DNA from: a virus
UHGV virus genome: UHGV-0265509
Length of the DNA: 12,623 bases
Reading direction: 5' to 3' (one strand)
Shown: piece after piece, positions 1 to 12,623 of the stretch
Position numbering within the stretch: position 1 is the stretch's first letter
Layout: every line of letters starts with the position of its first letter
Made by a program: the position numbers and the translations under genes
The notes under the pieces: generated by a model
Database searches by the model: none
What the model was told of the DNA's origin: nothing
The model's input: only the letters and a program-made list of their open reading frames with translations

Positions 1-71
1 GATATCCACTGCGTGAAATCCTTTTTGCTTAGCTAACCGCCACTTAGCGAGTTGTAGCGTCCAGATTCGCA

Positions 72-478: not shown

Positions 479-995
479 CTATAAAACACCATGGTTCTGG
501 ATAAAACTCTGTAAGCAAATCAACGTAAAAACTGCGTAAGTTTGTTAGCCTTATAACACGCCCTAACAAATCGTGTTCAGTACGGTGATAAATCACTACA
601 GAAGTTTCTGATACCCGTTTAACATGTATATGGCCCGTACTTTTAATGCTCTGATACAACCGTCCGAAATCAACTGTACCAACCGCATCTGATGAACCTG
701 TAACTGAGTACCGTATACGTGGGGTTTCATTTCCCGCTATCGATAAAAATTCCTCTGTCGCTATTGCAAAAACCTGCCCTGAAAAGGATAGGTGTGGAAT
801 TATTCGTTTACGTAAAGCACTACTTGAAATCTTAGCAAAAACCTGACGTTCCGTTAAGTGCATTAACTCACCTAATCTTTTCAGGTCTTTGTTATATTCC
901 AAAAAAGAAACTACTTTCTCGTCATGCGTAATAGGCGGCCATTCGACCGCCTTTGCCCGACGTTGCTTAAACCGACTCGCAAGTCGCGCTATCAC
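465..995 (-). CDS. hypothetical protein (176 aa)
   Basis: Long ORF in the operon frame pattern; apparent GTG start at 993-995 with GAGGA about 12 nt upstream (first in-frame ATG is far downstream); stop overlaps the next gene by 14 nt. No recognisable motifs. Confidence 0.5.
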   Translation of the reverse strand: MIARLASRFKQRRAKAVEWPPITHDEKVVSFLEYNKDLKRLGELMHLTERQVFAKISSSALRKRIIPHLSFSGQVFAIATEEFLSIAGNETPRIRYSVTGSSDAVGTVDFGRLYQSIKSTGHIHVKRVSETSVVIYHRTEHDLLGRVIRLTNLRSFYVDLLTEFYPEPWCFIDENK

Positions 996-997
996 GT

Positions 998-1690
998 TTA
1001 GTAATCCTCTTCCTGATTGACTACCGATTGGATACGCGTTGCGACTTCGCTAGTGTCCAGGTCAGTTTCGTCGACCTTATCCACAAGTTTCTGTACTTTA
1101 CGTACATGGGATTCGGTAACATCAAAACGACCACGATCGGCTAACAGCAACGTTACCATATCCTTACGCGTAACCAACAGTTCTTCTTCAGGTAGGTGTA
1201 GGGTTTTGTCTAACAGCCCAGAATGCATGAAGTTTTCCAGTAAGCGTTCTTCTCCCTGGTCAAAATCATAACGTTCGTTAGGTGCAGCAACGAAAGCGTA
1301 ACCGAAATAGTTTTCTTCTGTCTCACGTAGCGACTTGATGATTTTATCACCGTGCTGACAGAAATCACTTAACGTGTAGTCGTCAAGCGTTGCCACGATG
1401 GTTTCTGCCTGTACACCATTATCCGTTTCGTAGAGATGCGCAACCCACAGCTTCCAGTTACGTGGTTCGTCAAACAGACCACCGATTAACATATCAGTTG
1501 CTGCCATGCGCATACGCGGTGACGTTGTAAACTGGAAACCACGACCTGCGTACGGGCCGATAGGACGAATAGAGCTACCGACGAAAGTAATGCGGTTTAA
1601 CGCATTTTCAGCGATGGTGTGCGCGGTACGGTTAGCAGCTGCTTTCGGGTTATACTTTTTGTTACGAGGTTTCTTTTGTTTGGTAGCCAT
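998..1690 (-). CDS. hypothetical protein (230 aa) with a basic N-terminus and acidic C-terminus
   Basis: ATG at 1688-1690 overlapping the upstream stop (TAATG); N-terminal KQKKPRNKKYNPK basic tract, acidic C-terminal tail (VVNQEEDY). No recognisable catalytic motif. Confidence 0.55.
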   Translation of the reverse strand: MATKQKKPRNKKYNPKAAANRTAHTIAENALNRITFVGSSIRPIGPYAGRGFQFTTSPRMRMAATDMLIGGLFDEPRNWKLWVAHLYETDNGVQAETIVATLDDYTLSDFCQHGDKIIKSLRETEENYFGYAFVAAPNERYDFDQGEERLLENFMHSGLLDKTLHLPEEELLVTRKDMVTLLLADRGRFDVTESHVRKVQKLVDKVDETDLDTSEVATRIQSVVNQEEDY

Positions 1691-2172
1691 TATTTATTCT
1701 CAACTAATACTGTGTGAAATGCTTTATAAAGAGCTTGACGTGTCTCAACTAACGCAGGGCGATTAATCAAGCACATGTATCCGATTTTCCAAGACCAGTA
1801 AGAAGTGTCGTCGGTATTTAATCCGTAGTCAGGTTCAAGATATACCAAATCCGTGTACGCATCTGGTATATAAAGACGACACAAACTAAGATTCCAGAAA
1901 TTCGGTAAATCCGATTTTGCAAGTTCAGTCATAACCTGCATTGGAATCTGACTTCCAATAACGTCTGTTGCAAAAACGATATGCAGATTTCCAGGTGACT
2001 TAGAATACATACCGTGACCTTCACAACTCCACATTGTCGCCAAATGTGGATGGTCGTTGATTAGCTTACAGGTGTCACGAACTCCTTTTTCAATATAGCC
2101 GTTTTTGATTGCAAGCTGAGCACGCTCTTTAAATGACGCCAGTCTTTCTGCGTCAACAGAAAATTGAATCAT
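1690..2172 (-). CDS. hypothetical protein (160 aa)
   Basis: ATG at 2170-2172 in ATGA overlap with the upstream gene; uninterrupted ORF; function not recognisable. Confidence 0.55.
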   Translation of the reverse strand: MIQFSVDAERLASFKERAQLAIKNGYIEKGVRDTCKLINDHPHLATMWSCEGHGMYSKSPGNLHIVFATDVIGSQIPMQVMTELAKSDLPNFWNLSLCRLYIPDAYTDLVYLEPDYGLNTDDTSYWSWKIGYMCLINRPALVETRQALYKAFHTVLVENK

Positions 2173-2633
2173 GACGGATTCTTCCCTAAAATTATCTCGC
2201 GCATTTCCAGGTAGGTGTCAAACGGCACCACGGTGTCTTTGTAACGCAACGTTACGTAGGTTACGAAGTGTTGTGGTGCCAGGAAAGCACGCTTTGGCGA
2301 CCCGTCGTGGTTGTAATACTGTTTCGGACGATATTTGTTGAAAATGTCTTCACGTGGGAACAATGATTTCTGAATAACCACTTCCCAACGGTGTGGCGTT
2401 TCCAAGAGTCCAATACGGATCAGCATAGCATCTACCCACCGGCTCATGTTTTCGGTTAATACGAAACTGACGTGGTGGTGCTGTACCTCTGCTAACGCGA
2501 CTTCGGGTTCTTTATCCAGTCGCATTAATACCGCAAACAGTGGGCGATAATCAGAATCGTACAGGTCACGGAAAGCGGTTTTCTCACGCTGCTTAAACAA
2601 CTCAACAATTTCTTTAGATTCAAAACATTTCAT
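2169..2633 (-). CDS. hypothetical protein (154 aa)
   Basis: ATG at 2631-2633 preceded by AGGAGAAAAGAAA; ATGA overlap with the downstream gene; function not recognisable. Confidence 0.55.
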   Translation of the reverse strand: MKCFESKEIVELFKQREKTAFRDLYDSDYRPLFAVLMRLDKEPEVALAEVQHHHVSFVLTENMSRWVDAMLIRIGLLETPHRWEVVIQKSLFPREDIFNKYRPKQYYNHDGSPKRAFLAPQHFVTYVTLRYKDTVVPFDTYLEMREIILGKNPS

Positions 2634-2678
2634 TTTCTTTTCTCCTAATCATTAAAATAGTCGCAGTTGTAAAAAAGA

Positions 2679-3200
2679 CTACGGGTTAAAAGGTAACGGC
2701 TTGCAATCCCGCTTCTTCAACTCTTCTACTAACTCAGATAATGTACACCAACGTTTAAATTTGTTGTTGGCTTTAAAGTGACTGAGAATCTCCTCTACAC
2801 GCTCAATCGACCACTTCCCTTTACCCACGTTATCTAAATCTTTACGTAGCGAGAGCGTCTCAATGGTAAACGCTAACTCCGATGTGTCCGAGTGGTCGTA
2901 CAGTAGTCTTACTGGTGCAGATTGGTGAAGTGTAACACGCCACCCTGATTCCTTAGCCCAGTAAACATCTTTAATTCGACCACCGACGTCAATTACGGAA
3001 CTGATATAGCTCCACTCCTTTTCCAGTTTGTTCTCTTCAGCAGTTAATGCTTCTTCTAATCGTAAAGAATTAGGGGACGGAATCCACCAACCGTACTTAC
3101 CGTAATAATCATCTATTACAGTAATACCTTCGTAATACAGATATTGAGTTTTTGTATTAACGAATATTTCATCGCCAATTAAGACAGCGTTTATCTTCAT
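2679..3200 (-). CDS. hypothetical protein (173 aa)
   Basis: ATG at 3198-3200 in ATGA overlap with the upstream gene stop; uninterrupted ORF; function not recognisable. Confidence 0.55.
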   Translation of the reverse strand: MKINAVLIGDEIFVNTKTQYLYYEGITVIDDYYGKYGWWIPSPNSLRLEEALTAEENKLEKEWSYISSVIDVGGRIKDVYWAKESGWRVTLHQSAPVRLLYDHSDTSELAFTIETLSLRKDLDNVGKGKWSIERVEEILSHFKANNKFKRWCTLSELVEELKKRDCKPLPFNP

Positions 3201-3685
3201 CGTAAGTGCTTCCTGTAGAATAAGTCATACGCCTCCGATGTGGCGGTATCAATAGATCCTACTAAGGGAATAATATTCTTTTCGCTTATACCTGATGCCC
3301 AGGCCGCACGAGCAAAAGCTTGACCCGAACCCGTTGCCCAAACCGTGTTTTTATTCAGTACACGAGATTCAAATTTACCCTCTAGCAGTCCGAGCCAGTG
3401 TGTTTCCTCAGCTGTGTAAATGATAATCTGATCGTAAAACTGTTCTTTTTCGATAAGATCTTTAAATAACCCTTCAATCTTGGCTCGCTTTTCTTCAATC
3501 AAATATTTTTCTACTGCGACCATTATCGTATTTTTCCAGAGATCCGAGTCCAATACGCGTTCCCCAGTATAAACAACGAATTTGTTTTTGTACTTGTGTA
3601 ATTTAGGTGCCGCTTTAACTGTACCGCCGTAGTCAACCAACCGATCGGCTAAAATGTAATCGTTTGTTACTAAAACTGTTGTCAT
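3197..3685 (-). CDS. hypothetical protein (162 aa); possible HslV/proteasome-beta-like Ntn hydrolase
   Basis: Start taken at the internal ATG (3683-3685) preceded by GAGGTG SD and lying just downstream of a terminator, not the GTG at 3799 of the ORF track. N-terminus MTTVLVTNDY resembles HslV MTTIVSV (Thr nucleophile after Met removal); later TGSGQAFARAAWA resembles the HslV IGSGGPYAQAAARAL segment. Similarity judged by eye only. Confidence 0.4.
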   Translation of the reverse strand: MTTVLVTNDYILADRLVDYGGTVKAAPKLHKYKNKFVVYTGERVLDSDLWKNTIMVAVEKYLIEEKRAKIEGLFKDLIEKEQFYDQIIIYTAEETHWLGLLEGKFESRVLNKNTVWATGSGQAFARAAWASGISEKNIIPLVGSIDTATSEAYDLFYRKHLR

Positions 3686-3696
3686 CACACACCTCG

Positions 3697-3736
3697 AAGA
3701 AAAATAAAAGTACCCTCTCTCCGTTAGGAGAGAGGG
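3697..3736 (-). terminator. rho-independent terminator
   Basis: Perfect 10-bp stem CCCTCTCTCC / GGAGAGAGGG (3713-3722 and 3727-3736) with a 4-nt loop, followed on the transcribed (minus) strand by the U-rich tract UACUUUUAUUUUUCUU; lies directly after the stop of gene 3744..4013. Confidence 0.8.
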
Positions 3737-3743
3737 GCACTGC

Positions 3744-4013
3744 TTAAATCTTACGACTGCTACCGTAGCAGCCACGACCTGCTGTCGTTTTCGCAGCACT
3801 GACAGGTGCTAACGCAGCCATCGTACCATCGGTCTTAACAATGTGTAAGTTACTTACGCGAGCCAGACCTTTAAAGGTAATCTTCACACCCTTGCGTAAA
3901 CTCTTCACATCGTAACCGTCGAGTTTGAGTGTTTTGATTTTCTCAGGCTTACCTTCTTCGTAATAAGAAAGAACATTACCCGCACGTTTCTCAACAATGT
4001 AAATCTTAGCCAT
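3744..4013 (-). CDS. hypothetical small Lys-rich protein (89 aa), own promoter and terminator
   Basis: ATG at 4011-4013 with SD GGAG 9 nt upstream; sigma70-like promoter upstream and strong terminator immediately downstream; function not recognisable. Confidence 0.55.
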   Translation of the reverse strand: MAKIYIVEKRAGNVLSYYEEGKPEKIKTLKLDGYDVKSLRKGVKITFKGLARVSNLHIVKTDGTMAALAPVSAAKTTAGRGCYGSSRKI

Positions 4014-4036
4014 TTTAGATTACTCCATTTAGTTAA

Positions 4037-4050
4037 GTGAGAATTCTCAC
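4037..4050. promoter_or_regulatory. perfect 14-bp palindrome GTGAGAATTCTCAC, candidate operator
   Basis: Perfect palindrome located between the predicted -10 hexamer and the SD of gene 3744..4013, i.e. around the expected transcription start. Confidence 0.3.
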
Positions 4051-4058
4051 ATAGATGA

Positions 4059-4087
4059 AATATATCTTAAGTTTTTTAGACTGTCAT
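4059..4087 (-). promoter_or_regulatory. sigma70-like promoter for gene 3744..4013
   Basis: On the minus strand: -35 ATGACA (plus 4082-4087), 17-nt spacer, -10 TATATT (plus 4059-4064). Sequence-only prediction. Confidence 0.35.
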
Positions 4088-4395
4088 TAACACAACGCAA
4101 TATTAACCGACTTACCAGGTAGCGGGAAATGCTGAAGCTCTATCGATAGAAGTTTCCTGTCAATAGTCAGTATTTCATCAACGTTGGGGGTAAGGCGGAA
4201 TACAGCACGCGGTAACGTGAAAGGCACGTTTGTCGAGCAGTTATTTAACAGCAACTGATCCTGAGAATAGTCAATTTCTACCACCCTCGCAATTACCCAA
4301 CGTTCGTGAATCTCGCCGCCTAGCGGTGCAGTTAGTGCCCGTTGCAAGCGCTGTAAATTCGTTTCGTCGGTATTAGTGTGGTTTTGGCTCGACAT
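4087..4395 (-). CDS. hypothetical protein (102 aa)
   Basis: ORF-track ORF 4087..4506 begins at a GTG inside the upstream gene; the internal ATG at 4393-4395 (MSSQNH..., weak GGGG SD) gives a 23-nt overlap with the upstream gene and is the more plausible start. Function unknown. Confidence 0.4.
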   Translation of the reverse strand: MSSQNHTNTDETNLQRLQRALTAPLGGEIHERWVIARVVEIDYSQDQLLLNNCSTNVPFTLPRAVFRLTPNVDEILTIDRKLLSIELQHFPLPGKSVNIALC

Positions 4396-4690
4396 AAGTT
4401 TCCCCAAACACGTATGCGGTTCCGGCTTCATTTGTCGGTTTAGCAACACACCACATCCATGCACCGGTTTCAGGGTTTTGCCAGGACAACAGAAGAGAAC
4501 CCTCACAGATTTCAGAGGTATCGACCTCAGGGTGGAACAACATGAATTCGTTCTCGTTGTCGTCTACTACGACGAATTGACCTTCTTCCACCCTTTCGAA
4601 CTTAGCAACACCTACTACAGTTGCTGGTTCCCCAACGGTAAATACCATTTCTTGTTTTGGTAAATCACGGTGAATCGCACTTAACCACAT
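4373..4690 (-). CDS. hypothetical protein (105 aa)
   Basis: ATG at 4688-4690 preceded by GAGGAA SD 8 nt upstream; first gene after the terminator at 4744-4785; function unknown. Confidence 0.5.
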   Translation of the reverse strand: MWLSAIHRDLPKQEMVFTVGEPATVVGVAKFERVEEGQFVVVDDNENEFMLFHPEVDTSEICEGSLLLSWQNPETGAWMWCVAKPTNEAGTAYVFGETYVEPKPH

Positions 4691-4743
4691 TTAAGCTGTT
4701 CCTCAATTAATTTTGTTTACGTGTGCATAATTAGACGCGAAAG

Positions 4744-4785
4744 CGTAAAAATAAATTCTCCCTCTCTCCAAACGGAGAGAGGGAA
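4744..4785 (-). terminator. rho-independent terminator (same stem sequence as the 3713-3736 hairpin)
   Basis: 12-bp stem containing the identical CCCTCTCTCC / GGAGAGAGGG core (4760-4769 and 4774-4783), loop AAAC, followed on the minus strand by AAUUUAUUUUUACG; directly after the stop of gene 4789..5295. Confidence 0.8.
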
Positions 4786-4788
4786 GGT

Positions 4789-5295
4789 TTACAGTACGTT
4801 TTCTTCGCGATCGTCTACTAACACAGAAGTAATCACATAACGCGCTAAGCGACTACGTGCTTCTTCCGTTTCTTCTTCAGAAGGTAGCTGTTCGCCCGCA
4901 GGCGCACACAACGTTAGCCCAGACTCACGAAGCTGTTCGGCATAGTCTTCTACGGCTGTGTCGAACGTACCACGAATACCTGCTACCGCATCCATAATTT
5001 CGTCATTCGGAATAATGGATTCTTTTAGCACAGCGTGAGCATCTGTAGGCTCCACCATTTGCAGGTTCTGTTCTACCAGCAATGCCTGTTTCGCTAAGCT
5101 GTCGGTGATAAAGCAAGACAGAATCTTTTCGAAATCGTCTAACGAGAATTCGGTGTCTTCAGATGCCCCGGTAATCAATTGCCCGTAGCGATTAAAGAAT
5201 TCTTTACAACGTGTTTCGTAGTCAGCTTCTAAGTCGCGAACGCCGAGATCAAAATCGTGCTGCTCCAGCTGATTAAAATCCAGAGTCTCTTTCAT
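4789..5295 (-). CDS. strongly acidic hypothetical protein (168 aa); candidate DNA-mimic/anti-restriction protein
   Basis: ATG at 5293-5295 with SD GGAGA; by hand count roughly 39 Asp+Glu against roughly 14 Lys+Arg, including a C-terminal SEEETEEA tract; last gene of the Dam operon before the terminator. Function inferred only from composition and context. Confidence 0.55.
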   Translation of the reverse strand: MKETLDFNQLEQHDFDLGVRDLEADYETRCKEFFNRYGQLITGASEDTEFSLDDFEKILSCFITDSLAKQALLVEQNLQMVEPTDAHAVLKESIIPNDEIMDAVAGIRGTFDTAVEDYAEQLRESGLTLCAPAGEQLPSEEETEEARSRLARYVITSVLVDDREENVL

Positions 5296-5333
5296 CTCTA
5301 AGTCTCCAGTTAAGAGGTCATATTACCTGCTGG

Positions 5334-5561
5334 CTAGAGAGCCAACGTTAACCCGGTATGGGTTTGTACTGAACCAACACCATCGCGCGCTTTTGCTTTG
5401 GCGATAAGCTTGTCAATCACGCGTTGATGACTGCGGGTAATAACTTTACCCGGATAACCGATAATCAGCACGTTCTCGTCATTAATAACCGCCGAGAATT
5501 CGTTATCACCTGCGACATAAGTAATCTTTTTGTCTTTGGTTACAATACGTTTGATTTCCAT
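5334..5561 (-). CDS. hypothetical protein (75 aa)
   Basis: ATG at 5559-5561 with AGGA SD; 9 nt after the stop of the upstream gene; function unknown. Confidence 0.45.
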   Translation of the reverse strand: MEIKRIVTKDKKITYVAGDNEFSAVINDENVLIIGYPGKVITRSHQRVIDKLIAKAKARDGVGSVQTHTGLTLAL

Positions 5562-5570
5562 TCAATGTCC

Positions 5571-6344
5571 TTAAAAGATAAAATGGCCAGTTAATGCTTC
5601 TACTTCAACACCAGACATTGCTGGAGGTGCTGAGTATGGAAAAGTAAGACGCACGGTTGCACCCTTTAAATACGCAATACGGTAGTATGTGGTCAAGAGC
5701 GCAATCCCGTAAGTACAGTCGTTATAGAAGAAACCTTCGGTTGCAAACGTCTTTTCGTTGATTTTCGAATAGACTAAGATACCTTCAACTTTACCGTCTT
5801 TACGACAGCACAGCCCTTCAGCAGCCCCAATAGCTAACAATCCCAGGCAGTATGTATCTAAACTGACATTAACCACCTTAGGGATCGTAAACGTTTCTTC
5901 TAACGTTAGAGATTCAATATCAACTACATCAGGTAAATCGGTGCGAACTTCGGGTTCTTCAGTAAACGTCAGGTCATAGTCGATAGACGTCGGCTGCATA
6001 CCCAAATACACCATTAACTGGTCGCGACGTTTTAGGTCGTTGGCAGGGTATGTGACATCAAACACCTCCACTTTTAACAAACGTTTGAGTTGTGCGAAAT
6101 TAATTTTCTTCTTCGCAAACACAACGATTGCCGACATGTAGAAAAACTTACCGTCGGCACGACCGGAGAAGATTCCTTGTAGCTGATTCGTGTTCGAAAG
6201 AATGATAAAGGTCGGATCTTCAGACTCGCGAATGACGTCCTTTTCCAGTAACCCTTTCCGTACACGGGTTAGTGAAACCATTTTCCCGTCGACACCAATT
6301 GCTAAATGGTCATTACGATAATCGTGAATATCCACTATGCGCAT
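5571..6344 (-). CDS. hypothetical protein (257 aa), translationally coupled to Dam
   Basis: ATG at 6342-6344 shares one base with the dam stop codon (TAATG at 6342-6346); uninterrupted 257-codon ORF; no recognisable motif. Confidence 0.6.
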   Translation of the reverse strand: MRIVDIHDYRNDHLAIGVDGKMVSLTRVRKGLLEKDVIRESEDPTFIILSNTNQLQGIFSGRADGKFFYMSAIVVFAKKKINFAQLKRLLKVEVFDVTYPANDLKRRDQLMVYLGMQPTSIDYDLTFTEEPEVRTDLPDVVDIESLTLEETFTIPKVVNVSLDTYCLGLLAIGAAEGLCCRKDGKVEGILVYSKINEKTFATEGFFYNDCTYGIALLTTYYRIAYLKGATVRLTFPYSAPPAMSGVEVEALTGHFIF

Positions 6345-7159
6345 TAGAGCACTCCCAGTAATTCAGTCACCGTTTTCCGAGCAGCGCCAGACGCACCCAT
6401 ATAGCGACCGACCTCAATACTGCGCCACTCAAAACCGTAATAAATTTCTCGGGTGAGCAGGGTGTCTGCATTTGACAACACGACACTGTTGCCACGTTCC
6501 ACCTGCTGCTGTAGTAACTTGGCTAATTCTCGATGATCCGTTTGTGAGAATTCTTTACGGTGGTATTGCGCATGTTTCGCGGTATCCGATAACGGAATAT
6601 ACGGAGGATCAGCATAAATCACAGCATCCTCAGGCGTCCGCGCTAATACGGAACGAAAGTCTTCACAAACAATTTCCAGATAATCAACTTCTGCGCAACG
6701 TTTAGCCCAATCCCGAATTTCTTCTAACGGATAATAAACCCCATTCGGGTAACGTCCAAACGGAACATTGAACCCACCGCTACCGTTATAACGACACATC
6801 CCGTTATAACCGTGACGCATTAAGTATAAAAACATCGCTGCCCGTTCAACTTCTGACATTGTTTTACCGCTATTAAACAGCTCACGACGCTCCATATACT
6901 TTACAGTGGTATTACCGTCTAAGAACAACGGCTGCGACGCAGCGATCAGTTCTTCAGGCTGTTCACGCGCAACGCAAAGTAAGCGTATCAAATCAGGGTT
7001 AGAATCCGATAAAATATACCGGCTGTAATTCGTATTTAGGAAAACAGACCCTGCACCCACAAACGGTTCTACAAAGGTTGTACGTTTAGGTAAGACCTTT
7101 TGTAATTCCCCTAAAACACGTGTTTTCCCACCCATCCACTTAATAATTGGTTTCCGCAT
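6344..7159 (-). CDS. dam: DNA adenine methyltransferase, Dam family (GATC N6-adenine MTase)
   Basis: 271 aa, near-colinear with E. coli Dam by eye: N-terminal KWMGGK (Dam KWAGGK), AdoMet-binding FVEPFVGAGSVFLNT, LYLMRHGYNGMCRYN...FNVPFGRY, catalytic DPPY, C-terminal RKTVTELL. ATG at 7157-7159. Confidence 0.9.
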   Translation of the reverse strand: MRKPIIKWMGGKTRVLGELQKVLPKRTTFVEPFVGAGSVFLNTNYSRYILSDSNPDLIRLLCVAREQPEELIAASQPLFLDGNTTVKYMERRELFNSGKTMSEVERAAMFLYLMRHGYNGMCRYNGSGGFNVPFGRYPNGVYYPLEEIRDWAKRCAEVDYLEIVCEDFRSVLARTPEDAVIYADPPYIPLSDTAKHAQYHRKEFSQTDHRELAKLLQQQVERGNSVVLSNADTLLTREIYYGFEWRSIEVGRYMGASGAARKTVTELLGVL

Positions 7160-8138
7160 TATATCCGCCTTGTAACGATGACACTTCGTCGCCTAACACC
7201 AACTCGACACGATTTTTCCGTCGCTCCCAACTGACGACGTCATCGTCGCGCACTAAAACAAATTCGTAATCGTAGGGCCGAAATTTAAATAATTCGACGA
7301 CCAGGTGTCTAAATGCAGGGTTGTTATTGAAACACCCTATCTCTAATGGTGCCGCTGTTGTCGATGCAATCTGCAGAGCACGGTATAACAAAGTCCGTCC
7401 GATACCACGCCCCCGATGTGTTTCACTTACCGCAATGGCTTTTAATTCACACTCGTTAAGATTACGTAATTTAACTTGCACCACGCCCACAACATCGTTG
7501 CCGTCCATCCAAACGTAGGTGTGGTGGTTGACGTGACGTACTAATTCCACCAACGTTTCGACTTGTGGCATGATTTGTCGTGTGCGGCCCACAGGGTCAG
7601 CGTTGATGTTTTCAACGACGCTCGTACCCAAAAGCAACATAAGCTGTTCGCGTTGTGTGGCAGTTAGCTCTTTATAAAAATCGCCAGAAATATTCTTCAC
7701 GTTCGTTGGTAGTGCGACATCCAGTAACTTACGTGTGCCTAAACGGTACGTAGAGTGGGCGTGTCTAAATCCCAGGTCATTAAGCTCAGAGATTTCTTCT
7801 ACACCACTGGCAATTCGGTTAAGGTACGTAAAACCGGTATAGTCGAGTACCAGTAGTAGGTTCAGTTTGTTCAAACAACCCGGTACAATCTCATGCATAT
7901 ACAAGCAGTGTAACGTTGGGTCGCCGTAAATGTGTTTTGTGATGATAAACCCTTGAATTGTTTTTCCTTTTTGTAAAGAGAACGTATTCAGTTCACTATT
8001 GCACAACGCCTCACGAATCACCGCACCGTTAGGGCCCGATAAACAAGCTTGGAGTTGAGGGTTGCGAATGTCTCTGCGTGCTAAACGTCCTACTGTTAAA
8101 TCCGTGGCGGTACGTTCTATAGTCTTCCTAAAAGCCAT
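7140..8138 (-). CDS. two-domain protein (332 aa): unknown N-terminal domain fused to a C-terminal GNAT acetyltransferase domain
   Basis: ATG at 8136-8138 with SD AAGGAG; C-terminal part carries the GNAT acetyl-CoA motif (LKAIAVSETHRGRGIGRTLLYRALQIA, i.e. R-x-x-G-x-G); the first ~200 residues have no recognisable motif; 20-nt overlap with the dam start. Confidence 0.65.
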   Translation of the reverse strand: MAFRKTIERTATDLTVGRLARRDIRNPQLQACLSGPNGAVIREALCNSELNTFSLQKGKTIQGFIITKHIYGDPTLHCLYMHEIVPGCLNKLNLLLVLDYTGFTYLNRIASGVEEISELNDLGFRHAHSTYRLGTRKLLDVALPTNVKNISGDFYKELTATQREQLMLLLGTSVVENINADPVGRTRQIMPQVETLVELVRHVNHHTYVWMDGNDVVGVVQVKLRNLNECELKAIAVSETHRGRGIGRTLLYRALQIASTTAAPLEIGCFNNNPAFRHLVVELFKFRPYDYEFVLVRDDDVVSWERRKNRVELVLGDEVSSLQGGYNAETNY

Positions 8139-8185
8139 TTTAATTACTCCTTAAAAGGTCGTCTCAAAACAATACACTATAGCTG

Positions 8186-8220
8186 TAAAAACAAAAAAGA
8201 ATGGGGAACCGAAGTTCCCC
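8186..8220 (-). terminator. rho-independent terminator
   Basis: 7-bp GC-rich stem GGGGAAC / GTTCCCC (8203-8209 and 8214-8220); the RNA loop is UUCG, followed by AUUCUUUUUUGUUUUU on the minus strand. Confidence 0.8.
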
Positions 8221-8319
8221 TATATTAGTTAGCCGAACAGTCCCTCATCAAAATTCAAAGTGGGGGCTTCATGTAGTATTTCCATTGCCATGATTTTTAC
8301 TCCCGAAACGGTTCTTCAA

Positions 8320-8676
8320 TTAATCTCTGAAACCCAATGTTTGTTTAAACACGTTGCTGAGGTATCTCGGTTTTACTGTATTGATGTAATCTATAGCTGA
8401 CTCTGCAGTCACTTTAACCACACAGCGGCCGTTAGTGGACTCAAAGGTCACGCTGTATTTCAAACGCAACATGTCAGCAACTTTCATTATCGTCCCCAGC
8501 CCTAAACGTTCTGCGTGCTCGTTCTTAATTGAAGAAATAACTGACGGCGAAACTCTTGCTAGTTGAGCTATCTCACGTTGGGTAATTTTACCGCTCACCA
8601 AATGTCGAATGATGTAGCCTAGACGAATAACTAACTGTTCTTTTGCAATGGTGATGGTATTATGTTTATACGCCAT
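8320..8676 (-). CDS. XRE/Cro-CI family helix-turn-helix transcriptional regulator (118 aa)
   Basis: Start taken at ATG 8674-8676 (SD AGGA) rather than the GTG at 8730. HTH signature ITQREIAQLARVSPSVISSIKNEH is typical of XRE-family repressors. Confidence 0.6.
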   Translation of the reverse strand: MAYKHNTITIAKEQLVIRLGYIIRHLVSGKITQREIAQLARVSPSVISSIKNEHAERLGLGTIMKVADMLRLKYSVTFESTNGRCVVKVTAESAIDYINTVKPRYLSNVFKQTLGFRD

Positions 8677-8709
8677 GGTATCTAATCCTAATCTGTAAAC
8701 GTGTCGTAA

Positions 8710-8728
8710 GAGATTATATTGTAATCTC
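8710..8728. promoter_or_regulatory. inverted repeat GAGATTA-N5-TAATCTC overlapping a consensus -10 (TATAAT, minus strand, plus 8713-8718); candidate autoregulatory operator/promoter of the XRE gene
   Basis: 7-bp arms at 8710-8716 and 8722-8728; perfect TATAAT on the minus strand inside the repeat; the -35 is weak (ATGTTA). About 35 nt upstream of the XRE start. Confidence 0.3.
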
Positions 8729-8745
8729 ACTAAGGTAACATCTAT

Positions 8746-8789
8746 CTGAGAAAAAATAAAATATAGGTACCACCGTTGGGTGGTACCTA
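8746..8789 (-). terminator. rho-independent terminator
   Basis: 11-bp stem (8764-8774 and 8779-8789, core GGTACCACC / GGTGGTACC), loop of 4 nt, followed on the minus strand by UAUAUUUUAUUUUUUCUC; directly after the stop of the kinase gene. Confidence 0.8.
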
Positions 8790-8794
8790 AGCGG

Positions 8795-9418
8795 TTAGTT
8801 TGCTAAAATGTGCGTAACAATCTCTGCGGCTTTCAAACGGTAATCGTCATTCTGCGTTACCGGTAATAACGTGTGAAGACAACCGCCTTCTGTTAAGATG
8901 TGGTGTGCAAAACGATAATGGTCACGTAAACCATCCCAACATTGGTTGTCTTTTAGATACTTAACAGTAAGTACCTCATCATCCCAATTCTTACCTTGTT
9001 CTTCTACACGTTTCTTAAATCGTGTTAACGCTGTTGGGTAATCAACATCTGTCCAAACATAAAGGTCAGGAGTGTGGAAATGACGAGTTAGCTTACGTTG
9101 GAAAACCACGTCCTTACCATCTGTCCCCTGATAAACAATCGTTGAAGGACAGAAGCGATCGAAAATAACGACATCGTATTCATCAACGACATGGTCCAAC
9201 GTGTGAAGGAAATCATCACACATTGCTTCAGCAATTTTTGTTTTCGAGGCAGACTGTACAACCAAACTGCGTGCACGAATGCCCGCCTCAGTTTCAGACG
9301 TCGGATGGTTCCGAATACAAACTTTTAATCCTGCGGATTCCAACATCGCTTTTACCATTTTACACAACGTTGATTTCCCAGAAAAATCAGGACCATCAAT
9401 AGACACTGTCTTAAGCAT
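8795..9418 (-). CDS. tmk: thymidylate kinase (dTMP kinase) family nucleotide kinase
   Basis: 207 aa; P-loop SIDGPDFSGKST (E. coli Tmk IEGLEGAGKTT), RNHPTSETEAGIRARSLVV (Tmk TREPGGTQLAEKLRSLVL), FDRF...STIVYQG (Tmk GDRH...STQAYQG), PDLYVWTDVD (Tmk PDLTLYLDV). Monocistronic, between two terminators. Substrate not determinable from sequence. Confidence 0.75.
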   Translation of the reverse strand: MLKTVSIDGPDFSGKSTLCKMVKAMLESAGLKVCIRNHPTSETEAGIRARSLVVQSASKTKIAEAMCDDFLHTLDHVVDEYDVVIFDRFCPSTIVYQGTDGKDVVFQRKLTRHFHTPDLYVWTDVDYPTALTRFKKRVEEQGKNWDDEVLTVKYLKDNQCWDGLRDHYRFAHHILTEGGCLHTLLPVTQNDDYRLKAAEIVTHILAN

Positions 9419-9453
9419 TATTGTTTTACCTTTTTACGCACGTTAAGTGAAAC

Positions 9454-9468
9454 CTCTCACAATGAGAG
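9454..9468. promoter_or_regulatory. inverted repeat CTCTCA-N3-TGAGAG in the kinase upstream region; candidate operator
   Basis: 6-bp arms at 9454-9459 and 9463-9468, about 35-50 nt upstream of the kinase ATG; contains the TCTCAC hexamer also present in the palindromes at 4037-4050 and 8726-8731. Confidence 0.2.
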
Positions 9469-9486
9469 TAACAGTTGTAATAATTT

Positions 9487-9525
9487 ACAATAAAAAAGAA
9501 ACCCGCCCCTACCGTTAAGTAGGGG
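9487..9525 (-). terminator. rho-independent terminator
   Basis: 7-bp stem CCCCTAC / GTAGGGG (9506-9512 and 9519-9525), 6-nt loop, followed on the minus strand by CGGGUUUCUUUUUUAUUG; directly after the stop of gene 9533..10138. Confidence 0.7.
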
Positions 9526-9532
9526 TAAGGTT

Positions 9533-10138
9533 TTATTGGTGATCAACAATCGGATCACTCCACACTTCTGACGTTTCCGGCGCGGTGAGGTTAGCAGCCT
9601 GTGCAGAAGTTACGCACAGCAAGACTAACCCTTGTTTAGCAAGATAATGTTGCATTCTTGCTGCCTGCACGGCGGTGTCCACAATAACGAGCTCAGCGTC
9701 ACGTAGAAGCGTTAGAGCTGCTTGCCCCTCTTGCGGTGTGGTTAAAGCATCACTGTCGTCTAGAATGCGTTTAAGGCGGTTATACGCCAACCCAGTTACA
9801 TTACTCCGGCCTGCACGAAGATCAACGACCATATTGCTATATTCCCCCACCACTTGTTGCGTCGAGTTTGGATAAAATCGAAACGCAGCACGGCGACGTT
9901 TACGTCGCACCTCAGAAATCGCGCGTTGTAAAACCAACAATACGTATTTCGGAGCCGCTTCGCTATTCGGTCGTCGCATCTTGGCTAAACGTGCAGCTAA
10001 ATCCAAAATTTTCGTTAAGGGATAGCGGTGTTTAAACCCGTCACGTTCGATAGTAACGCCACGTTTAGGCAACTTGCCTGTTTTGTTGATATACGATACT
10101 GTAATCAATAGTAATGAATCGAGAATCATCTCTGACAT
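9533..10138 (-). CDS. hypothetical protein (201 aa)
   Basis: ATG at 10136-10138 with SD GAGGG about 9 nt upstream; uninterrupted ORF; Arg-rich central segment (RRKRRRAAFRFY); function unknown. Confidence 0.55.
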   Translation of the reverse strand: MSEMILDSLLLITVSYINKTGKLPKRGVTIERDGFKHRYPLTKILDLAARLAKMRRPNSEAAPKYVLLVLQRAISEVRRKRRRAAFRFYPNSTQQVVGEYSNMVVDLRAGRSNVTGLAYNRLKRILDDSDALTTPQEGQAALTLLRDAELVIVDTAVQAARMQHYLAKQGLVLLCVTSAQAANLTAPETSEVWSDPIVDHQ

Positions 10139-10152
10139 TACAAGGCCCTCTC

Positions 10153-10524
10153 TTAGAACCCCTCAAGAACAGCTTTCACAAATTCGTAAACCGTGCGTCG
10201 GTGTTCTTCAAGCGGATAAACAAACTTAGAATAATCGTTGTTCCAGACAACCGGATAGAGGTCGCCGTCACAACTTAAATAGCTCTTACGAACCATGTAA
10301 TAATCTAAACCTACACGGAAGTTTAACGACAGACTACCGTGTTTACTACAAACGTGTAGCTGGAGCGATTTCACACCGTCGTGGGTTGGTGATTCAATCG
10401 TTTCCGCATACAATACATCCGAACACTGTTCTATAACGCTAACGACATCTCTGAGGTTGTTGTCTGCATCGATGGTCGCCTTTCGGAGAGCGTCGGTGTA
10501 TTGCTGAAGTTCTCGATAGAACAT
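10153..10524 (-). CDS. hypothetical protein (123 aa)
   Basis: ATG at 10522-10524 with SD GGAG 9 nt upstream; the start lies 94 nt inside the upstream ORF in another frame. Confidence 0.5.
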   Translation of the reverse strand: MFYRELQQYTDALRKATIDADNNLRDVVSVIEQCSDVLYAETIESPTHDGVKSLQLHVCSKHGSLSLNFRVGLDYYMVRKSYLSCDGDLYPVVWNNDYSKFVYPLEEHRRTVYEFVKAVLEGF

Positions 10525-11063
10525 CCTGCTAATCTCCTGTCTCTACCGTAAGGTAGAGGAAATGCTTTGTGTTCAAATTCTGCAACGACATACGCAGGAT
10601 AGAACAAAAGGTATTTATAGAACGTAGCCAACGTAACGTCTTTCGGGGTGGCTAAAAAGTAATTAAGATCGGGGTTGTCTGGAAAAGCAAAATGCAACCC
10701 TGTATATACCTGGCCTTTATACTCCCCATTAAAGGGCGTCACTGCACATCGTGGGTGTGTCGGCTCGACATGTAACCAACGACTCCCAACATGATAAACA
10801 GCGCGTACTGTGGCGTTTCGAGTTTTACCCAAGTAACGGCAGCGAATATTCTTTTCCCATGCAACACGTTGCGCGGGTGAACCCAGAGAAACAAACCGTG
10901 TTAAAGCCTCGGGCGTAAAGTAATCAAAAATGCCTGTCGGTAAACACCAACACGCTTTATCGATTCGTACCACTCTCCAACCAGGACGAAAACCCACAGC
11001 GTAACGCTCTACACCAAAAGTATATCTAGACCCGTCATGAAACGGTACGAATCTTGCAGCCAT
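10431..11063 (-). CDS. hypothetical protein (210 aa)
   Basis: ATG at 11061-11063, 1 nt after the GNAT gene stop; Trp/Tyr/Phe-rich; C-terminal ~30 codons overlap the next gene and contain a hairpin, so the true 3' end is uncertain. Confidence 0.5.
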   Translation of the reverse strand: MAARFVPFHDGSRYTFGVERYAVGFRPGWRVVRIDKACWCLPTGIFDYFTPEALTRFVSLGSPAQRVAWEKNIRCRYLGKTRNATVRAVYHVGSRWLHVEPTHPRCAVTPFNGEYKGQVYTGLHFAFPDNPDLNYFLATPKDVTLATFYKYLLFYPAYVVAEFEHKAFPLPYGRDRRLAGCSIENFSNTPTLSERRPSMQTTTSEMSLAL

Positions 11064-11064
11064 T

Positions 11065-11532
11065 TTAGATTTCCTTTATCATTTCCCTGCATTCGGTACG
11101 GAATCCCATTTTCTCATACAGGGAGATAGCTTTAACGTTGTTGTCTAACACATCCAGACTCATCCAACCACAGCCTTTGGACTTTCCGTATTCACGGACT
11201 TTGTCCATAAGCGCACGACCTACCCCTTGAGAACGTGCTTCGGGAATCACGTAGTAGTTCCCAATATAAACAAATGTGTCCTTTGAGCAAGAGCCCATTG
11301 AAAACGTCATGAAGCCCAAAAGTTGTTCGTCGCCATCCACCGCACACGCACAGAGATAATCTTGAGGCCAAATCTCTTCTAAGTGTTCAATTGGGTTGAA
11401 CGTGTCGCGTCCGGTTAACTGACTAATACGCACTTTCTCTTCTGCGAACAGCATGTTGTGCAGTTTGAGTACCTGGTCGCCGTATAACTTTCCGTATTTA
11501 CTGTCGGGTTTGAGAATAATAGTGATACGCAT
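11065..11532 (-). CDS. GNAT family N-acetyltransferase (155 aa)
   Basis: ATG at 11530-11532 in TAATG overlap with the upstream gene, SD GAGG; canonical GNAT motif A (YVIPEARSQGVGRALMDKVREYGKSKG) and motif B-like LYEKMGF. Confidence 0.8.
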   Translation of the reverse strand: MRITIILKPDSKYGKLYGDQVLKLHNMLFAEEKVRISQLTGRDTFNPIEHLEEIWPQDYLCACAVDGDEQLLGFMTFSMGSCSKDTFVYIGNYYVIPEARSQGVGRALMDKVREYGKSKGCGWMSLDVLDNNVKAISLYEKMGFRTECREMIKEI

Positions 11533-12623
11533 TATTTAACCTCAATCAGCGACAATCTGCACCATTCCAGTAAGCCCTCCGCAACGCGCACTAACGTGGT
11601 AGTAAACGCATCTTCTAAACGCAGCGCGTTTTTATACCGAACGGTAGCATCGCGTAACTCACGACCATCTAACGACTTCAGCTCTTTTTTCATTCGCTGA
11701 ACTTCATCGTAAATACCAGTATAACCAACACTACGTCGTTTCGTACCACGCTGACGTAACGCTCGGATAATGTTTCTAACAGCATCGAGAGCTGAACCGA
11801 TCTCGTGCAAGTTCAGCGATTTGATTGTGTGGCCAAAATCACCATCGCGGGCAATCGCCCACTCAATCTTACCGCTGTCGTGTTCAACGACCACCACGTT
11901 ACCAGGCCACGGATACGCTTTCACCGTTTTAAACGGATCAATAATACCGAACAGTCCTGCGCTTCGTTTAATCGCCCAGCTCGTTGACCGTCCCACTTTC
12001 TCCAAACCGCTCTCGGTAACTTTCTTGCTCTTACCGATAATAGTGCGTGTTTTAACGGTATACTCGTTGACCATCGCATCCATTGCGCTCAGGTTCTTAC
12101 TGAACTCAATACACGCTTTTACGTTAGGCTTGTCTTCTAAACAAACTTTGGTTGTCCAACTTCCCGTGTCGCAGTCGACCGGTTTTAAAGTGTCCTTGAT
12201 GCCGAGTAAACTTAGCTTTGCGGTTAACTTTTCCAGTTTGCGTTCTAAGGTCGTCGCTTTAGACGTCGCTTCTTTTAATTCCTTAATGACTTCTTTACCG
12301 GCGGCTTCCGCGAAGTCGACAAAACGTAACGCAAGTTGCTTAGAATGTTTACCTGCGAAGTTTCCGGTTGCCTTAGCCCCCGCTATCGCTGCCTTTCCAG
12401 CAATACGACCAGCCCCTTTAACCGCTCTGCCGGTCGCGCGTGCGACCGCTTTACCTACCCCTGCGTAAGGCTCAGTGTCCGCAACAAATTGCGCGCGTTC
12501 CATCATCGCTGCGGACTCTAGCGCAACCTGCACATCGTCTAAAACCCACCGTTTTCGGATAGCGACAATCGCCGGATAATTGTCTTTAACATTAAGCGAC
12601 TCTAACGCGACCAATCGATCGTA
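11532..12623 (-). CDS. hypothetical protein, 5'-partial (at least 363 codons in window), Ala/Gly/Lys-rich segment
   Basis: The reading frame stays open to the window edge (12623); the ORF-track start at 12612-12614 is a TTG, so the true start is probably outside the window. Contains the low-complexity tract AVARATGRAVKGAGRIAGKAAIAGAKATGNFAGK; function unknown. Confidence 0.55.
   Translation of the reverse strand, partial: YDRLVALESLNVKDNYPAIVAIRKRWVLDDVQVALESAAMMERAQFVADTEPYAGVGKAVARATGRAVKGAGRIAGKAAIAGAKATGNFAGKHSKQLALRFVDFAEAAGKEVIKELKEATSKATTLERKLEKLTAKLSLLGIKDTLKPVDCDTGSWTTKVCLEDKPNVKACIEFSKNLSAMDAMVNEYTVKTRTIIGKSKKVTESGLEKVGRSTSWAIKRSAGLFGIIDPFKTVKAYPWPGNVVVVEHDSGKIEWAIARDGDFGHTIKSLNLHEIGSALDAVRNIIRALRQRGTKRRSVGYTGIYDEVQRMKKELKSLDGRELRDATVRYKNALRLEDAFTTTLVRVAEGLLEWCRLSLIEVK

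What the first reader, a model, noticed from the sequence alone, without database searches (positions are those of the whole stretch)
4744..8220. Terminator-bounded Dam operon with four uncharacterised partners: candidate DNA-modification/anti-restriction module
Between two strong terminators (8186-8220 and 4744-4785) lies a single tightly coupled operon: a 332-aa GNAT-fusion protein, an E. coli-like Dam methyltransferase, a 257-aa protein whose ATG overlaps the dam stop (TAATG), a 75-aa protein and a strongly acidic 168-aa protein. Dam is the only recognisable enzyme. Orphan Dam-like methyltransferases in phages are established to protect against GATC-specific restriction and to modulate host methylation-dependent processes. 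Here it is physically and translationally linked to unknown proteins, suggesting a multi-component system rather than a lone methyltransferase.
Basis: partly seen in the sequence, partly recalled or inferred. Interest (0 to 1): 0.75.

Follow-up and report, generated by a model that had tools for sequence, protein, structure and literature searches.

The report
Jumbo-phage Dam operon with GNAT-like neighbours
This is a real five-gene transcription unit of a giant (phiKZ/SPN3US-like) enterobacterial phage that carries an E. coli-type GATC DNA methylase, but related phages keep the neighbouring genes without the methylase and vice versa, so it looks like an ordinary conserved gene block and not a new multi-protein DNA-modification machine.

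Summary
On the minus strand, five tightly packed genes lie between two strong hairpin-plus-T terminators: 332-aa GNAT fusion, 271-aa Dam, 257-aa, 75-aa and acidic 168-aa proteins. All four partners are under purifying selection (dN/dS 0.04-0.08).

The window comes from a roughly 222-226 kb SPN3US-like nucleus-forming jumbo phage, probably the recently proposed 'Bapsvirus'. The same block, with the same terminators, is SPN3US gp104-gp109. It recurs in Machinavirus, Wellingtonvirus and Erskinevirus.

The link to Dam is not obligatory:
- Erskinevirus keeps Dam but has lost the GNAT fusion.
- Derbicusvirus (CR5, Phobos) keeps GNAT-like paralogues and the 75-aa and 168-aa homologues. CR5 has no Dam anywhere in its 224 kb, and its 168-aa gene lies 9 kb away.
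- The 257-aa protein is a diverged paralogue of the GNAT fusion without its acetyl-CoA motif, in 1-3 copies per phage.

The GNAT domain resembles RimI/NAT protein acetyltransferases, not Mom. The acidic protein has a confident all-helical model with no structural relatives, including Ocr and ArdA.

Best reading: an orphan GATC methylase sits inside a lineage-specific array of GNAT-fold host-interaction genes and is co-transcribed with it. It is a new member of a known kind, of modest interest.

The parts
8203..8220 (-). Intrinsic terminator closing the upstream HTH unit (GGGGAACUUCGGUUCCCC plus T-run). It marks the 5' boundary of the operon.
   Evidence: -13.2 kcal/mol, z = -3.65; the hairpin is conserved with compensatory changes in 7 phages; an equivalent terminator sits in SPN3US at L002:3145-3168.
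8139..8202 (-). Leader and candidate phage promoter region. It holds a conserved TTTTTAC ... TTGT(T/G)TGA motif and a GGAG Shine-Dalgarno site ahead of the GNAT gene.
   Evidence: TTTTTAC and TGTGA-like blocks are conserved downstream of the terminator across genera whose proteins are only 20-60% identical. Promoter function is inferred. A loose regex for the motif was not enriched within the window.
7140..8138 (-). P1, 332 aa. It has a degenerate GNAT-like N-terminal domain and a C-terminal GNAT acetyltransferase with an intact acetyl-CoA motif (RGRGIG, aa 242-247). It is the orthologue of SPN3US gp104.
   Evidence: PF00583, E=2.5e-12; phrog_8663; the best PDB matches are RimI/Naa/VipF-type N-acetyltransferases; rimI is the top NCBIfam hit, below its cut-off.; dN/dS about 0.08.
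6344..7159 (-). P2, 271 aa. An orphan Dam-family N6-adenine DNA methyltransferase, predicted to be GATC-specific. It is the orthologue of SPN3US gp105.
   Evidence: PF02086, E=6e-57. TIGR00571 scores 252 bits against a cut-off of 115. E. coli Dam 2g1p, E=1.7e-64; 44% identity; DPPY at 184-187, FVGAG at 33-37, and the equivalents of EcoDam K9, Y119, N120, R124, P134, R137 and Y138 are conserved.
5571..6344 (-). P3, 257 aa. A lineage-restricted, diverged paralogue of the P1 family with GNAT-like folds and no acetyl-CoA motif, so probably non-catalytic. Its start is coupled to the Dam stop (TAATG). It is the orthologue of SPN3US gp106.
5334..5561 (-). P4, 75 aa, function unknown, with a conserved L(D/E)KL(V/I)AKAKxRDG motif. 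It is basic here (pI 9.6) but near neutral in most homologues. It is the orthologue of SPN3US gp108 and is also present in Dam-less CR5 and Phobos.
   Evidence: phrog_7896.; dN/dS 0.08.
4789..5295 (-). P5, 168 aa, uniformly acidic across the family (pI 4.05-4.37). It is all-helical, has no structural relatives, and its function is unknown. It is the orthologue of SPN3US gp109 and CR5_119.
4758..4785 (-). Intrinsic terminator directly after the P5 stop codon. It marks the 3' boundary of the operon.
   Evidence: 12-bp stem, -22.8 kcal/mol, z = -5.3; the equivalent terminator after SPN3US gp109 is at L002:7486-7511.

Best explanation
The region is one co-transcribed unit of a Chimalliviridae (SPN3US-like, probably 'Bapsvirus') jumbo phage. 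It bundles two functionally separate things.

(1) An orphan, host-like Dam methyltransferase.
- It is predicted to methylate GATC in phage DNA before packaging.
- The inferred benefit is that injected DNA resists MboI/DpnII-type cleavage and looks like 'self' to Dam-positive enteric hosts. Host Dam is presumably kept out of the phage nucleus, so only a phage enzyme could do this.

(2) A lineage-specific array of tandem GNAT-fold paralogues, followed by two small orphan proteins.
- P1 keeps an active-looking acetyl-CoA site. It most resembles RimI/NAT protein N-acetyltransferases, so it probably acetylates a host or phage protein.
- P3, and its extra copies in relatives, has lost that site. It is probably a non-catalytic binding or decoy paralogue.
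- P4 and the acidic helical P5 are conserved accessory proteins of unknown function that do not depend on Dam.

The genes are adjacent and translationally packed because the whole genome arm is organised that way. Dam appears either to have been inserted into the GNAT-like array or to have been lost from it in Derbicusvirus.

Shown: gene identities, operon boundaries, paralogy, phyletic decoupling. Inferred: GATC methylation in vivo, protein acetylation, the anti-restriction benefit.
For: - Dam identity and GATC-contact residues.
- Operon boundaries are real and conserved.
- The window is syntenic with SPN3US and relatives well beyond the operon (TMK, HTH, g110, g115).
- P1 has motif A (RGRGIG) and P3 has none.
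- The nearest solved and curated relatives of P1 are RimI, Naa and VipF-type.
- The number of P3-like copies varies from 1 to 3.
- Erskinevirus has lost P1 but kept a full-length Dam behind the same terminator and leader.
- Derbicusvirus keeps two P1-like genes, a P3-position paralogue, P4 and P5. CR5 has no D12 methylase in its whole 224-kb genome (best hmmsearch E = 0.26), and its P5 is 9 kb away.
- GATC is depleted in every lineage and most of all in the Dam-less one (O/E 0.13-0.17 against 0.22-0.40). This fits Dam relaxing a GATC-directed pressure.
- All partners are under purifying selection.
Against: - The five-gene order and its terminators are conserved across at least five lineages whose proteins are only 23-67% identical. 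Some functional reason for co-expression cannot be excluded.
- Dam-P3 start/stop coupling (TAATG here, ATGA in Caitlin) is compatible with stoichiometric co-production.
- No experimental data exist for any homologue. The SPN3US papers read do not mention gp104-109.
- Only D12-class methylases were searched rigorously in CR5.
- The GATC comparison is correlational and has a single Dam-less lineage.
Confidence: 0.62

Rival explanations
1. The five proteins form one multi-component DNA-modification or anti-restriction system centred on Dam. For example, the GNAT-fold proteins might target, regulate or extend Dam's modification, and P4 and P5 might act as accessory subunits.
For: - One terminator-bounded unit with overlapping or coupled genes.
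- The same order and the same boundaries in Seoulvirus, Machinavirus, Wellingtonvirus, Erskinevirus (minus P1) and the window's lineage.
- A precedent of a GNAT-superfamily DNA modifier (Mom) tied to Dam in phage Mu, as discussed in PMC7824862.
Against: - P1 is dispensable where Dam is kept (Asesino).
- Partner homologues persist in the Dam-less CR5/Phobos lineage (CR5 scanned whole), and P5 is detached there.
- The P1 and P3 families show no similarity to Mu Mom (hhalign probability 0.2% and 0.1%), and P1 resembles protein N-acetyltransferases.
- P3 lacks a cofactor motif.
- The adjacency sits inside a long syntenic backbone.
Confidence: 0.12
2. The acidic 168-aa P5 is a DNA-mimic or other anti-defence protein acting on its own (Ocr/ArdA/Gam-like in principle). 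It would merely be co-transcribed with Dam in an 'anti-defence' unit.
For: - Strong acidity is conserved in all 38 family members (pI 4.05-4.37, net charge -19 to -25).
- A compact, confident all-helical model.
- High conservation and purifying selection.
- It persists without Dam, as expected for an independent function.
Against: - The invariant residues include H13, R20, Y37, K57 and R108. They look more like a binding or active site than a uniform charge mimic.
- Acidity alone is common among phage early proteins. The next gene, g110, has pI 4.4.
Confidence: 0.12
3. Dam here serves phage physiology and not restriction evasion. GATC methylation might control replication, packaging or a carrier-like persistence state, as Dmt/Dam does for P1 pac cleavage and oriR. 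The neighbours would be unrelated to that role.
For: - This lineage is found as whole 222-226 kb contigs or circular 'plasmids' in bacterial isolate genomes, consistent with a carrier state; PMC12768965.
- The phage nucleus is thought already to shield replicating DNA from restriction (PMC7824862), which weakens the anti-restriction rationale.
- The role of Dam in P1 is established knowledge recalled from memory, not tested here.
Against: - GATC is under-represented (23 observed against 46 expected in the window).
- No GATC cluster lies in the operon's leader, and none falls between 6944 and 9157.
- Dam-less sister lineages appear to manage without it.
- No pac- or ori-like GATC array was seen in the 12.6 kb available.
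Confidence: 0.14

Closest known systems
SPN3US gp104-gp109 block (SPN3US_0104-0109) and its equivalents in Machinavirus, Wellingtonvirus and Erskinevirus
   Same: - The same gene order: GNAT fusion, Dam, P3-like, P4, P5.
- The same flanking terminators and the same neighbours (TMK, HTH, g110, g115).
- Already annotated in GenBank and RefSeq as GNAT, DNA methyltransferase and hypothetical proteins.
   Different: - The window has a single P3-like gene where relatives have two or three (F3a, F3b, F3c).
- It lacks the two small genes found between HTH and GNAT in SPN3US.
- Protein identities are only 23% (P3), 31% (P1), 42% (P4), 44% (P5) and 68% (Dam).
- The upstream part of the window is instead syntenic with CR5 and Phobos.
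Orphan phage Dam methyltransferases of the EcoDam/T4 Dam/P1 Dmt kind (D12 class, GATC)
   Same: D12 Pfam and TIGR00571 membership, the DPPY and FxGxG motifs, conserved GATC-contact residues, and no cognate endonuclease nearby.
   Different: - It is encoded by a nucleus-forming jumbo phage, where host Dam and restriction enzymes are thought to be excluded from replicating DNA. Its benefit is therefore less obvious.
- It is much closer to host Dam (E=1.7e-64) than to T4 Dam (E=1e-10).
Tandem-GNAT proteins with one degenerate domain (e.g. Legionella VipF 6wqb, ORF14 2wpw, MshD)
   Same: - The P1 profile hits VipF and ORF14 with two stretches.
- The architecture is a degenerate GNAT-like domain followed by a GNAT domain, with an acetyl-CoA motif only in the C-terminal one.
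   Different: - Sequence similarity is confined to the GNAT core.
- N-terminal against C-terminal domain similarity within P1 is weak (hhalign 9%).
- The substrate is unknown.
- P3 has no cofactor motif at all.
Phage Mu com/mom (GNAT-superfamily adenine modification dependent on Dam)
   Same: A GNAT-superfamily gene is genetically linked to Dam methylation in a phage.
   Different: - There is no detectable similarity to Mom.
- Mu relies on host Dam as a regulator, not on an adjacent phage dam gene (recalled from memory, not tested).
- P1 is lost in Erskinevirus while Dam stays.
Acidic DNA-mimic anti-restriction proteins (Ocr, ArdA)
   Same: P5 is small, very acidic and helical.

Membership tests
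Dam family / D12-class N6-adenine DNA methyltransferase (P2) | Scores above the curated family thresholds (Pfam PF02086, NCBIfam TIGR00571) | tested here: met
   PF02086 scores 193.6 bits against a cut-off of 22. TIGR00571 scores 252.3 bits against 114.85. It falls below the E. coli Dam equivalog cut-off, 255 against 441.
Dam family / D12-class N6-adenine DNA methyltransferase (P2) | Catalytic motif IV (DPPY) and SAM-binding motif I (FxGxG) | tested here: met
   DPPY at aa 184-187 and FVGAG at aa 33-37. The equivalent of EcoDam D54 is conserved.
Dam family / D12-class N6-adenine DNA methyltransferase (P2) | EcoDam residues that contact GATC (K9, Y119, N120, L122, R124, P134, R137, Y138; list recalled from the EcoDam-DNA structures) | tested here: met
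   All are identical in the alignment to 2g1p except L122, which is M.
Dam family / D12-class N6-adenine DNA methyltransferase (P2) | Orphan status: no cognate restriction endonuclease in the neighbourhood | tested here: met
   No nuclease domain appears in the four operon partners or in the flanking ORFs that were scanned.
Dam family / D12-class N6-adenine DNA methyltransferase (P2) | GATC N6-methylation of DNA in vivo | not testable with these tools
   This needs DpnI/DpnII/MboI digests or SMRT/nanopore methylome analysis of virion DNA.
GNAT acetyltransferase (P1 C-terminal domain) | Pfam GNAT above threshold and acetyl-CoA pyrophosphate-binding motif A (R/Q-x-x-G-x-G/A) | tested here: met
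   PF00583 scores 47.5 bits against a cut-off of 20.7. RGRGIG lies at aa 242-247. 195 PDB GNAT chains match at E of 1 or less.
GNAT acetyltransferase (P3) | GNAT fold | tested here: inconclusive
GNAT acetyltransferase (P3) | Acetyl-CoA-binding motif A | tested here: not met
   No R/QxxGxG/A occurs anywhere in P3. The P1 motif column aligns to unconserved residues in the P3 family.
Mom-type DNA-modifying GNAT (phage Mu) | Sequence or profile similarity to Mom | tested here: not met
   hhalign of the P1 family against Mu Mom gives probability 0.2%. The P3 family gives 0.1%. The Mom side was a single sequence, so sensitivity was limited.
DNA-mimic anti-restriction proteins (Ocr, ArdA) - P5 | Strongly acidic small protein | tested here: met
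   pI 4.13 and net charge -25 in the window. The family range is pI 4.05-4.37.
DNA-mimic anti-restriction proteins (Ocr, ArdA) - P5 | Sequence or fold similarity to a known mimic | tested here: not met
   - Asesino and L013 have Dam, F3a, F3b, P4 and P5 without P1.
- CR5, Phobos and L020 have two P1-like genes, a P3-position paralogue, P4 and P5 without Dam in the locus.
- CR5 has no D12 methylase genome-wide.
   No multimer prediction or experimental data were available. The SPN3US literature read does not mention gp104-109.

The most novel reading that the evidence does not exclude
The conserved, terminator-bounded co-expression of Dam with a family of GNAT-fold paralogues and two orphan proteins could reflect a real functional module peculiar to SPN3US-like nucleus-forming phages. 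Two versions remain open:
- The pseudo-GNAT P3 and the P4/P5 proteins target or regulate Dam, for instance its import into the phage nucleus or its site choice.
- The active GNAT converts adenine or m6A into a new acylated base.

In either version, Derbicusvirus and Erskinevirus would be secondarily simplified.
Probability: 0.08. Interest if true: 0.65.

Novelty: new member of a known kind. Interest (0 to 1): 0.25.

Why it matters
If the ordinary reading is right, the main value is better annotation.
- The block known as SPN3US gp104-gp109 can be described as 'orphan GATC Dam embedded in an array of tandem GNAT-fold paralogues, followed by two orphan proteins'.
- Three things are now clear: the 257-aa 'hypothetical' is a cofactor-less paralogue of the GNAT protein, the partners do not depend on Dam, and the acidic protein has no structural relatives in the libraries searched.

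Two modest biological questions become testable in an available model phage (SPN3US).
- Why does a nucleus-forming phage, whose replicating DNA is thought to be shielded from restriction, keep a host-like Dam? The graded GATC depletion (strongest in the Dam-less lineage) hints at a GATC-directed pressure acting outside the nucleus.
- What do the fast-evolving GNAT-fold paralogues acetylate or bind?

Neither question is very surprising to a specialist.

Tried and rejected
- Megablast of the operon against 50,697 phage records found nothing. The lineage turned up only in E. coli and PLSDB 'plasmid' records, in IMG/VR and in isolate assemblies.
- A single-sequence protein search with P3 returned only relatives of 91% identity or more. 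A profile search added six distant members. An exhaustive HMMER scan of 1.84 billion representatives gave only 11 hits, none carrying a Pfam domain. No 'Rosetta-stone' domain fusion was found.
- An exact look-up of P3 found no encoding contig.
- The Mom hypothesis for the GNAT proteins was rejected by hhalign against Mu Mom.
- Weak Pfam hits were dismissed as chance because they fall far below their cut-offs: SRPRB for P4, NAP for P5 and TYW3 for the 160-aa ORF.
- Sigma-70-like promoters are no more frequent than in shuffled sequence (15 found against 19.4 expected), so they were not used.
- Terminator-like sites inside the genes (6766-6738, 6943-6931, 5665-5646) are weak and lie in coding sequence, so they were treated as chance.
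- A regex for the candidate phage promoter motif was not convincingly enriched in the window.
- An NPPY motif in the CR5 'helicase' (CR5_037) had no Pfam support and was dropped as a candidate methylase.
- SPN3US head and essential-gene papers, the Chimalliviridae core-genome paper and the phiKZ TnSeq preprint contain nothing on these genes.
- P1 itself was not folded, because the two structure jobs went to P3 and P5.

Full report
**1. What is in the sequence**

Every long ORF in the 12.6-kb window is on the minus strand. Between 8220 and 4744 lie five genes:
- P1, 8138..7140, 332 aa
- P2, 7159..6344, 271 aa
- P3, 6344..5571, 257 aa
- P4, 5561..5334, 75 aa
- P5, 5295..4789, 168 aa

- P1 and P2 overlap by 20 nt.
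- The P2 stop and the P3 start share TAATG, with a GGGAG Shine-Dalgarno site upstream.
- P3 and P4 are 9 nt apart. P4 and P5 are 38 nt apart, with a GGAG site.

Strong hairpin-plus-T terminators sit at 8220-8203 (-13.2 kcal/mol, z = -3.65) and at 4785-4758 (-22.8 kcal/mol, z = -5.3). No shuffle of either folded as well.

Similar terminators also bracket the neighbouring TMK, HTH and downstream units, at 9525-9506, 8789-8764 and 3736-3713. Short terminator-bounded units are therefore the general architecture here. This operon is simply the longest in the window.

Against relatives 81-93% identical, P1, P3, P4 and P5 have dN/dS of 0.04-0.08. They are real, constrained genes.

**2. Where it comes from**

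The operon has no near DNA match among 50,697 phage records. Its proteins, however, match SPN3US-like and Erwinia jumbo phages at 23-68% identity. The 360-aa ORF at 12614..11532 is a phiKZ-type internal head protein (PF12699).

Close relatives occur as 220-226 kb contigs in several places:
- IMG/VR;
- isolate assemblies of Salmonella, Shigella, E. coli and Enterobacter;
- circular 222-kb 'plasmids' in complete genomes NZ_CP173450.1 and NZ_CP134650.1, at 81% nucleotide identity.

This fits the 'Bapsvirus' genus proposed in PMC12768965. That paper describes phages of about 220-226 kb within Chimalliviridae, syntenic with Seoulvirus, and found in Salmonella, E. coli and Shigella assemblies.

**3. 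Identity of the parts**

*P2 (Dam).* P2 is an EcoDam-type methyltransferase.
- PF02086 E=6e-57.
- TIGR00571 scores 252 bits against a cut-off of 115.
- The E. coli Dam structure 2g1p matches at E=1.7e-64, with 44% identity.
- DPPY, FxGxG and the equivalents of K9, Y119, N120, R124, P134, R137 and Y138 are conserved.
- GATC specificity is therefore well supported by sequence, but it is untested.

*P1 (GNAT fusion).* P1 carries a C-terminal GNAT domain with an intact acetyl-CoA motif (RGRGIG, aa 242-247).
- Its nearest solved and curated relatives are RimI, Naa30/50, archaeal NATs and the tandem-GNAT VipF.
- It shows no similarity to Mu Mom.

*P3.* P3 has no Pfam, NCBIfam or PDB sequence match. 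Several lines tie it to the P1 family.
- Profile-profile comparison links its family to the P1 family colinearly: 77% with small alignments, 94% (E=1.4e-7) with larger ones, and 96% (E=3e-9) over about 235 columns once the positional equivalent from CR5 and Phobos is added.
- The signal is strongest between the two N-terminal domains (89%).
- The AlphaFold model of P3 is weak (pLDDT 55; N-domain 70-87). It shows a beta-beta-beta-alpha-beta-alpha pattern twice.
- P3 has no acetyl-CoA motif.
- The family is tiny, with 11 hits among 1.84 billion representative proteins.

I conclude that P3 is a fast-evolving, probably non-catalytic paralogue of P1. This is an inference of moderate strength.

*P4.* P4 is a small orphan protein with a conserved LDKLVAKAKxRDG motif.

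*P5.* P5 is acidic in all 38 family members examined (pI 4.05-4.37).
- It folds confidently as five helices (pLDDT 85).

**4. Is Dam functionally tied to its neighbours?**

They are.
- SPN3US gp104-gp109, Caitlin gp115-gp121, pEa_SNUABM_6, Huxley, Wellington and an uncultured 237-kb phage all show GNAT fusion, Dam, P3-like (1-3 copies), P4, P5.
- SPN3US has terminators at the same two boundaries.
- The upstream hairpin shows compensatory changes across seven phages.

This conservation, however, lies inside a much longer syntenic backbone running from TMK and HTH through to g110 and g115. The linkage also breaks in both directions.
- Erskinevirus (Asesino) has lost P1. Its Dam is full-length and starts MIKPILKWMGGK; the database start is called 29 codons too late. 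It follows the same terminator and leader directly.
- Derbicusvirus (CR5, Phobos and an IMG/VR relative) has TMK, two P1-like GNATs, a P3-position paralogue and P4, with no Dam in the locus. P5 lies about 8-9 kb downstream.
- A six-frame HMM scan of the whole 223,989-bp CR5 genome finds no D12 methylase (best E = 0.26), and none is annotated.

The partner genes therefore have Dam-independent functions, and Dam does not need P1. The tight spacing between Dam and P3 is also not special: neighbouring genes throughout the region overlap or nearly abut.

**5. A hint about what Dam is for**

GATC is under-represented in every lineage.
- The window has 23 sites observed against 46 expected.
- In syntenic 16-18 kb loci of Dam-positive lineages, O/E is 0.22-0.40.
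- The depletion is strongest in the Dam-less lineage: 0.13 in the locus, and 160 observed against 964 expected (0.17) across the whole CR5 genome.

This fits a GATC-directed selective pressure that a phage Dam partly relieves. The evidence is correlational and rests on one Dam-less lineage.

Comparative work on jumbo phages notes that nucleus-forming phages carry few DNA-modification systems, because the shell is thought to limit restriction (PMC7824862). Any benefit from Dam would then most plausibly act on injected DNA before the nucleus forms. That step is inference.

**6. Verdict**

- The orphan Dam and the operon are real and conserved.
- The evidence argues against an obligate multi-component Dam system.
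- No partner has a DNA-modification or known anti-restriction domain or fold.

The block is already present, and annotated as GNAT, methyltransferase and hypothetical proteins, in dozens of deposited genomes. What this analysis adds:
- the paralogy between P1 and P3;
- the decoupling seen in Erskinevirus and Derbicusvirus;
- the absence of any structural relative for P5;
- the GATC gradient.

Novelty: a new member of a known kind. Interest: about 0.25. A facultative functional link is not excluded. I put it at about 8-12%, and it is directly testable in SPN3US.

Noticed in passing
whole window; L028 (NZ_CP173450.1), H124 (NZ_CP134650.1), L009-L012: The window's phage lineage has no close match among the deposited phage records searched (INPHARED). 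It does occur as complete contigs of about 222-226 kb in isolate assemblies of Salmonella, Shigella, E. coli and Enterobacter, and as circular 'plasmids' in two complete genomes. This matches the carrier-state 'Bapsvirus' of PMC12768965.
   Followed up: partly
window 1-12623; L009-L022; CR5 genome (L023-L027, L005): GATC is under-represented in all SPN3US-like lineages (O/E 0.22-0.40). It is most depleted in the Dam-less Derbicusvirus: 0.13 in the locus, and 160 observed against 964 expected genome-wide in CR5. CTAG is also low in the window, at 12 observed against 24 expected.
   Followed up: partly
window 8139-8202 (minus strand); alignment A7: Downstream of the conserved terminator hairpin, a TTTTTAC ... 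TTGT(T/G)TGA motif is conserved across genera with very divergent proteins. TGTGAGA-like sequences also precede the TMK, HTH and 89-aa genes. This may be a phage RNA polymerase promoter, but a loose regex was not enriched within the window.
   Followed up: partly
window 4758-4785 and 3713-3736 (minus strand): Two terminators share an identical 10-bp stem (CCCTCTCTCC / GGAGAGAGGG) and differ in the loop. They look like a repeated terminator cassette.
   Followed up: no
window 3197-3799 (minus strand): The mechanical 200-aa ORF starts at a GTG at 3799, but homology begins at residue 39 and the terminator at 3736-3713 lies inside its first 38 codons. The true start is probably the ATG near 3685.
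   Followed up: partly
L007:3549 (Asesino gp121); L002:4233-4260 (SPN3US gp105): Database start codons for Dam appear to be called too late: 29 codons in Asesino and about 8 in SPN3US. This cuts off the conserved KW(M/A)GGK N-terminus, which includes the EcoDam K9 equivalent.
   Followed up: partly
window 11065-11532 and 11532-12614 (minus strand): A second, stand-alone GNAT lies here (155 aa, PF00583 E=7e-19, annotated RimI-like in CR5 and Phobos). It directly follows a phiKZ-type internal head protein (PF12699). This upstream part of the window is syntenic with Derbicusvirus and not with SPN3US.
   Followed up: no
window 4373-4690 (minus strand): The first gene after the operon is g110 (105 aa, pI 4.4). 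It is also acidic and is one of the best-conserved proteins of the region, at 69% identity to SPN3US gp110. It has no Pfam match.
   Followed up: no
L005/L025 (CR5 97.3-105.9 kb): In CR5, about 9 kb separates the P4 and P5 homologues. It holds 16 genes, including thymidylate synthase and an 'Arn.3-like' protein. The P4/P5 junction therefore appears to be an insertion hot spot.
   Followed up: no
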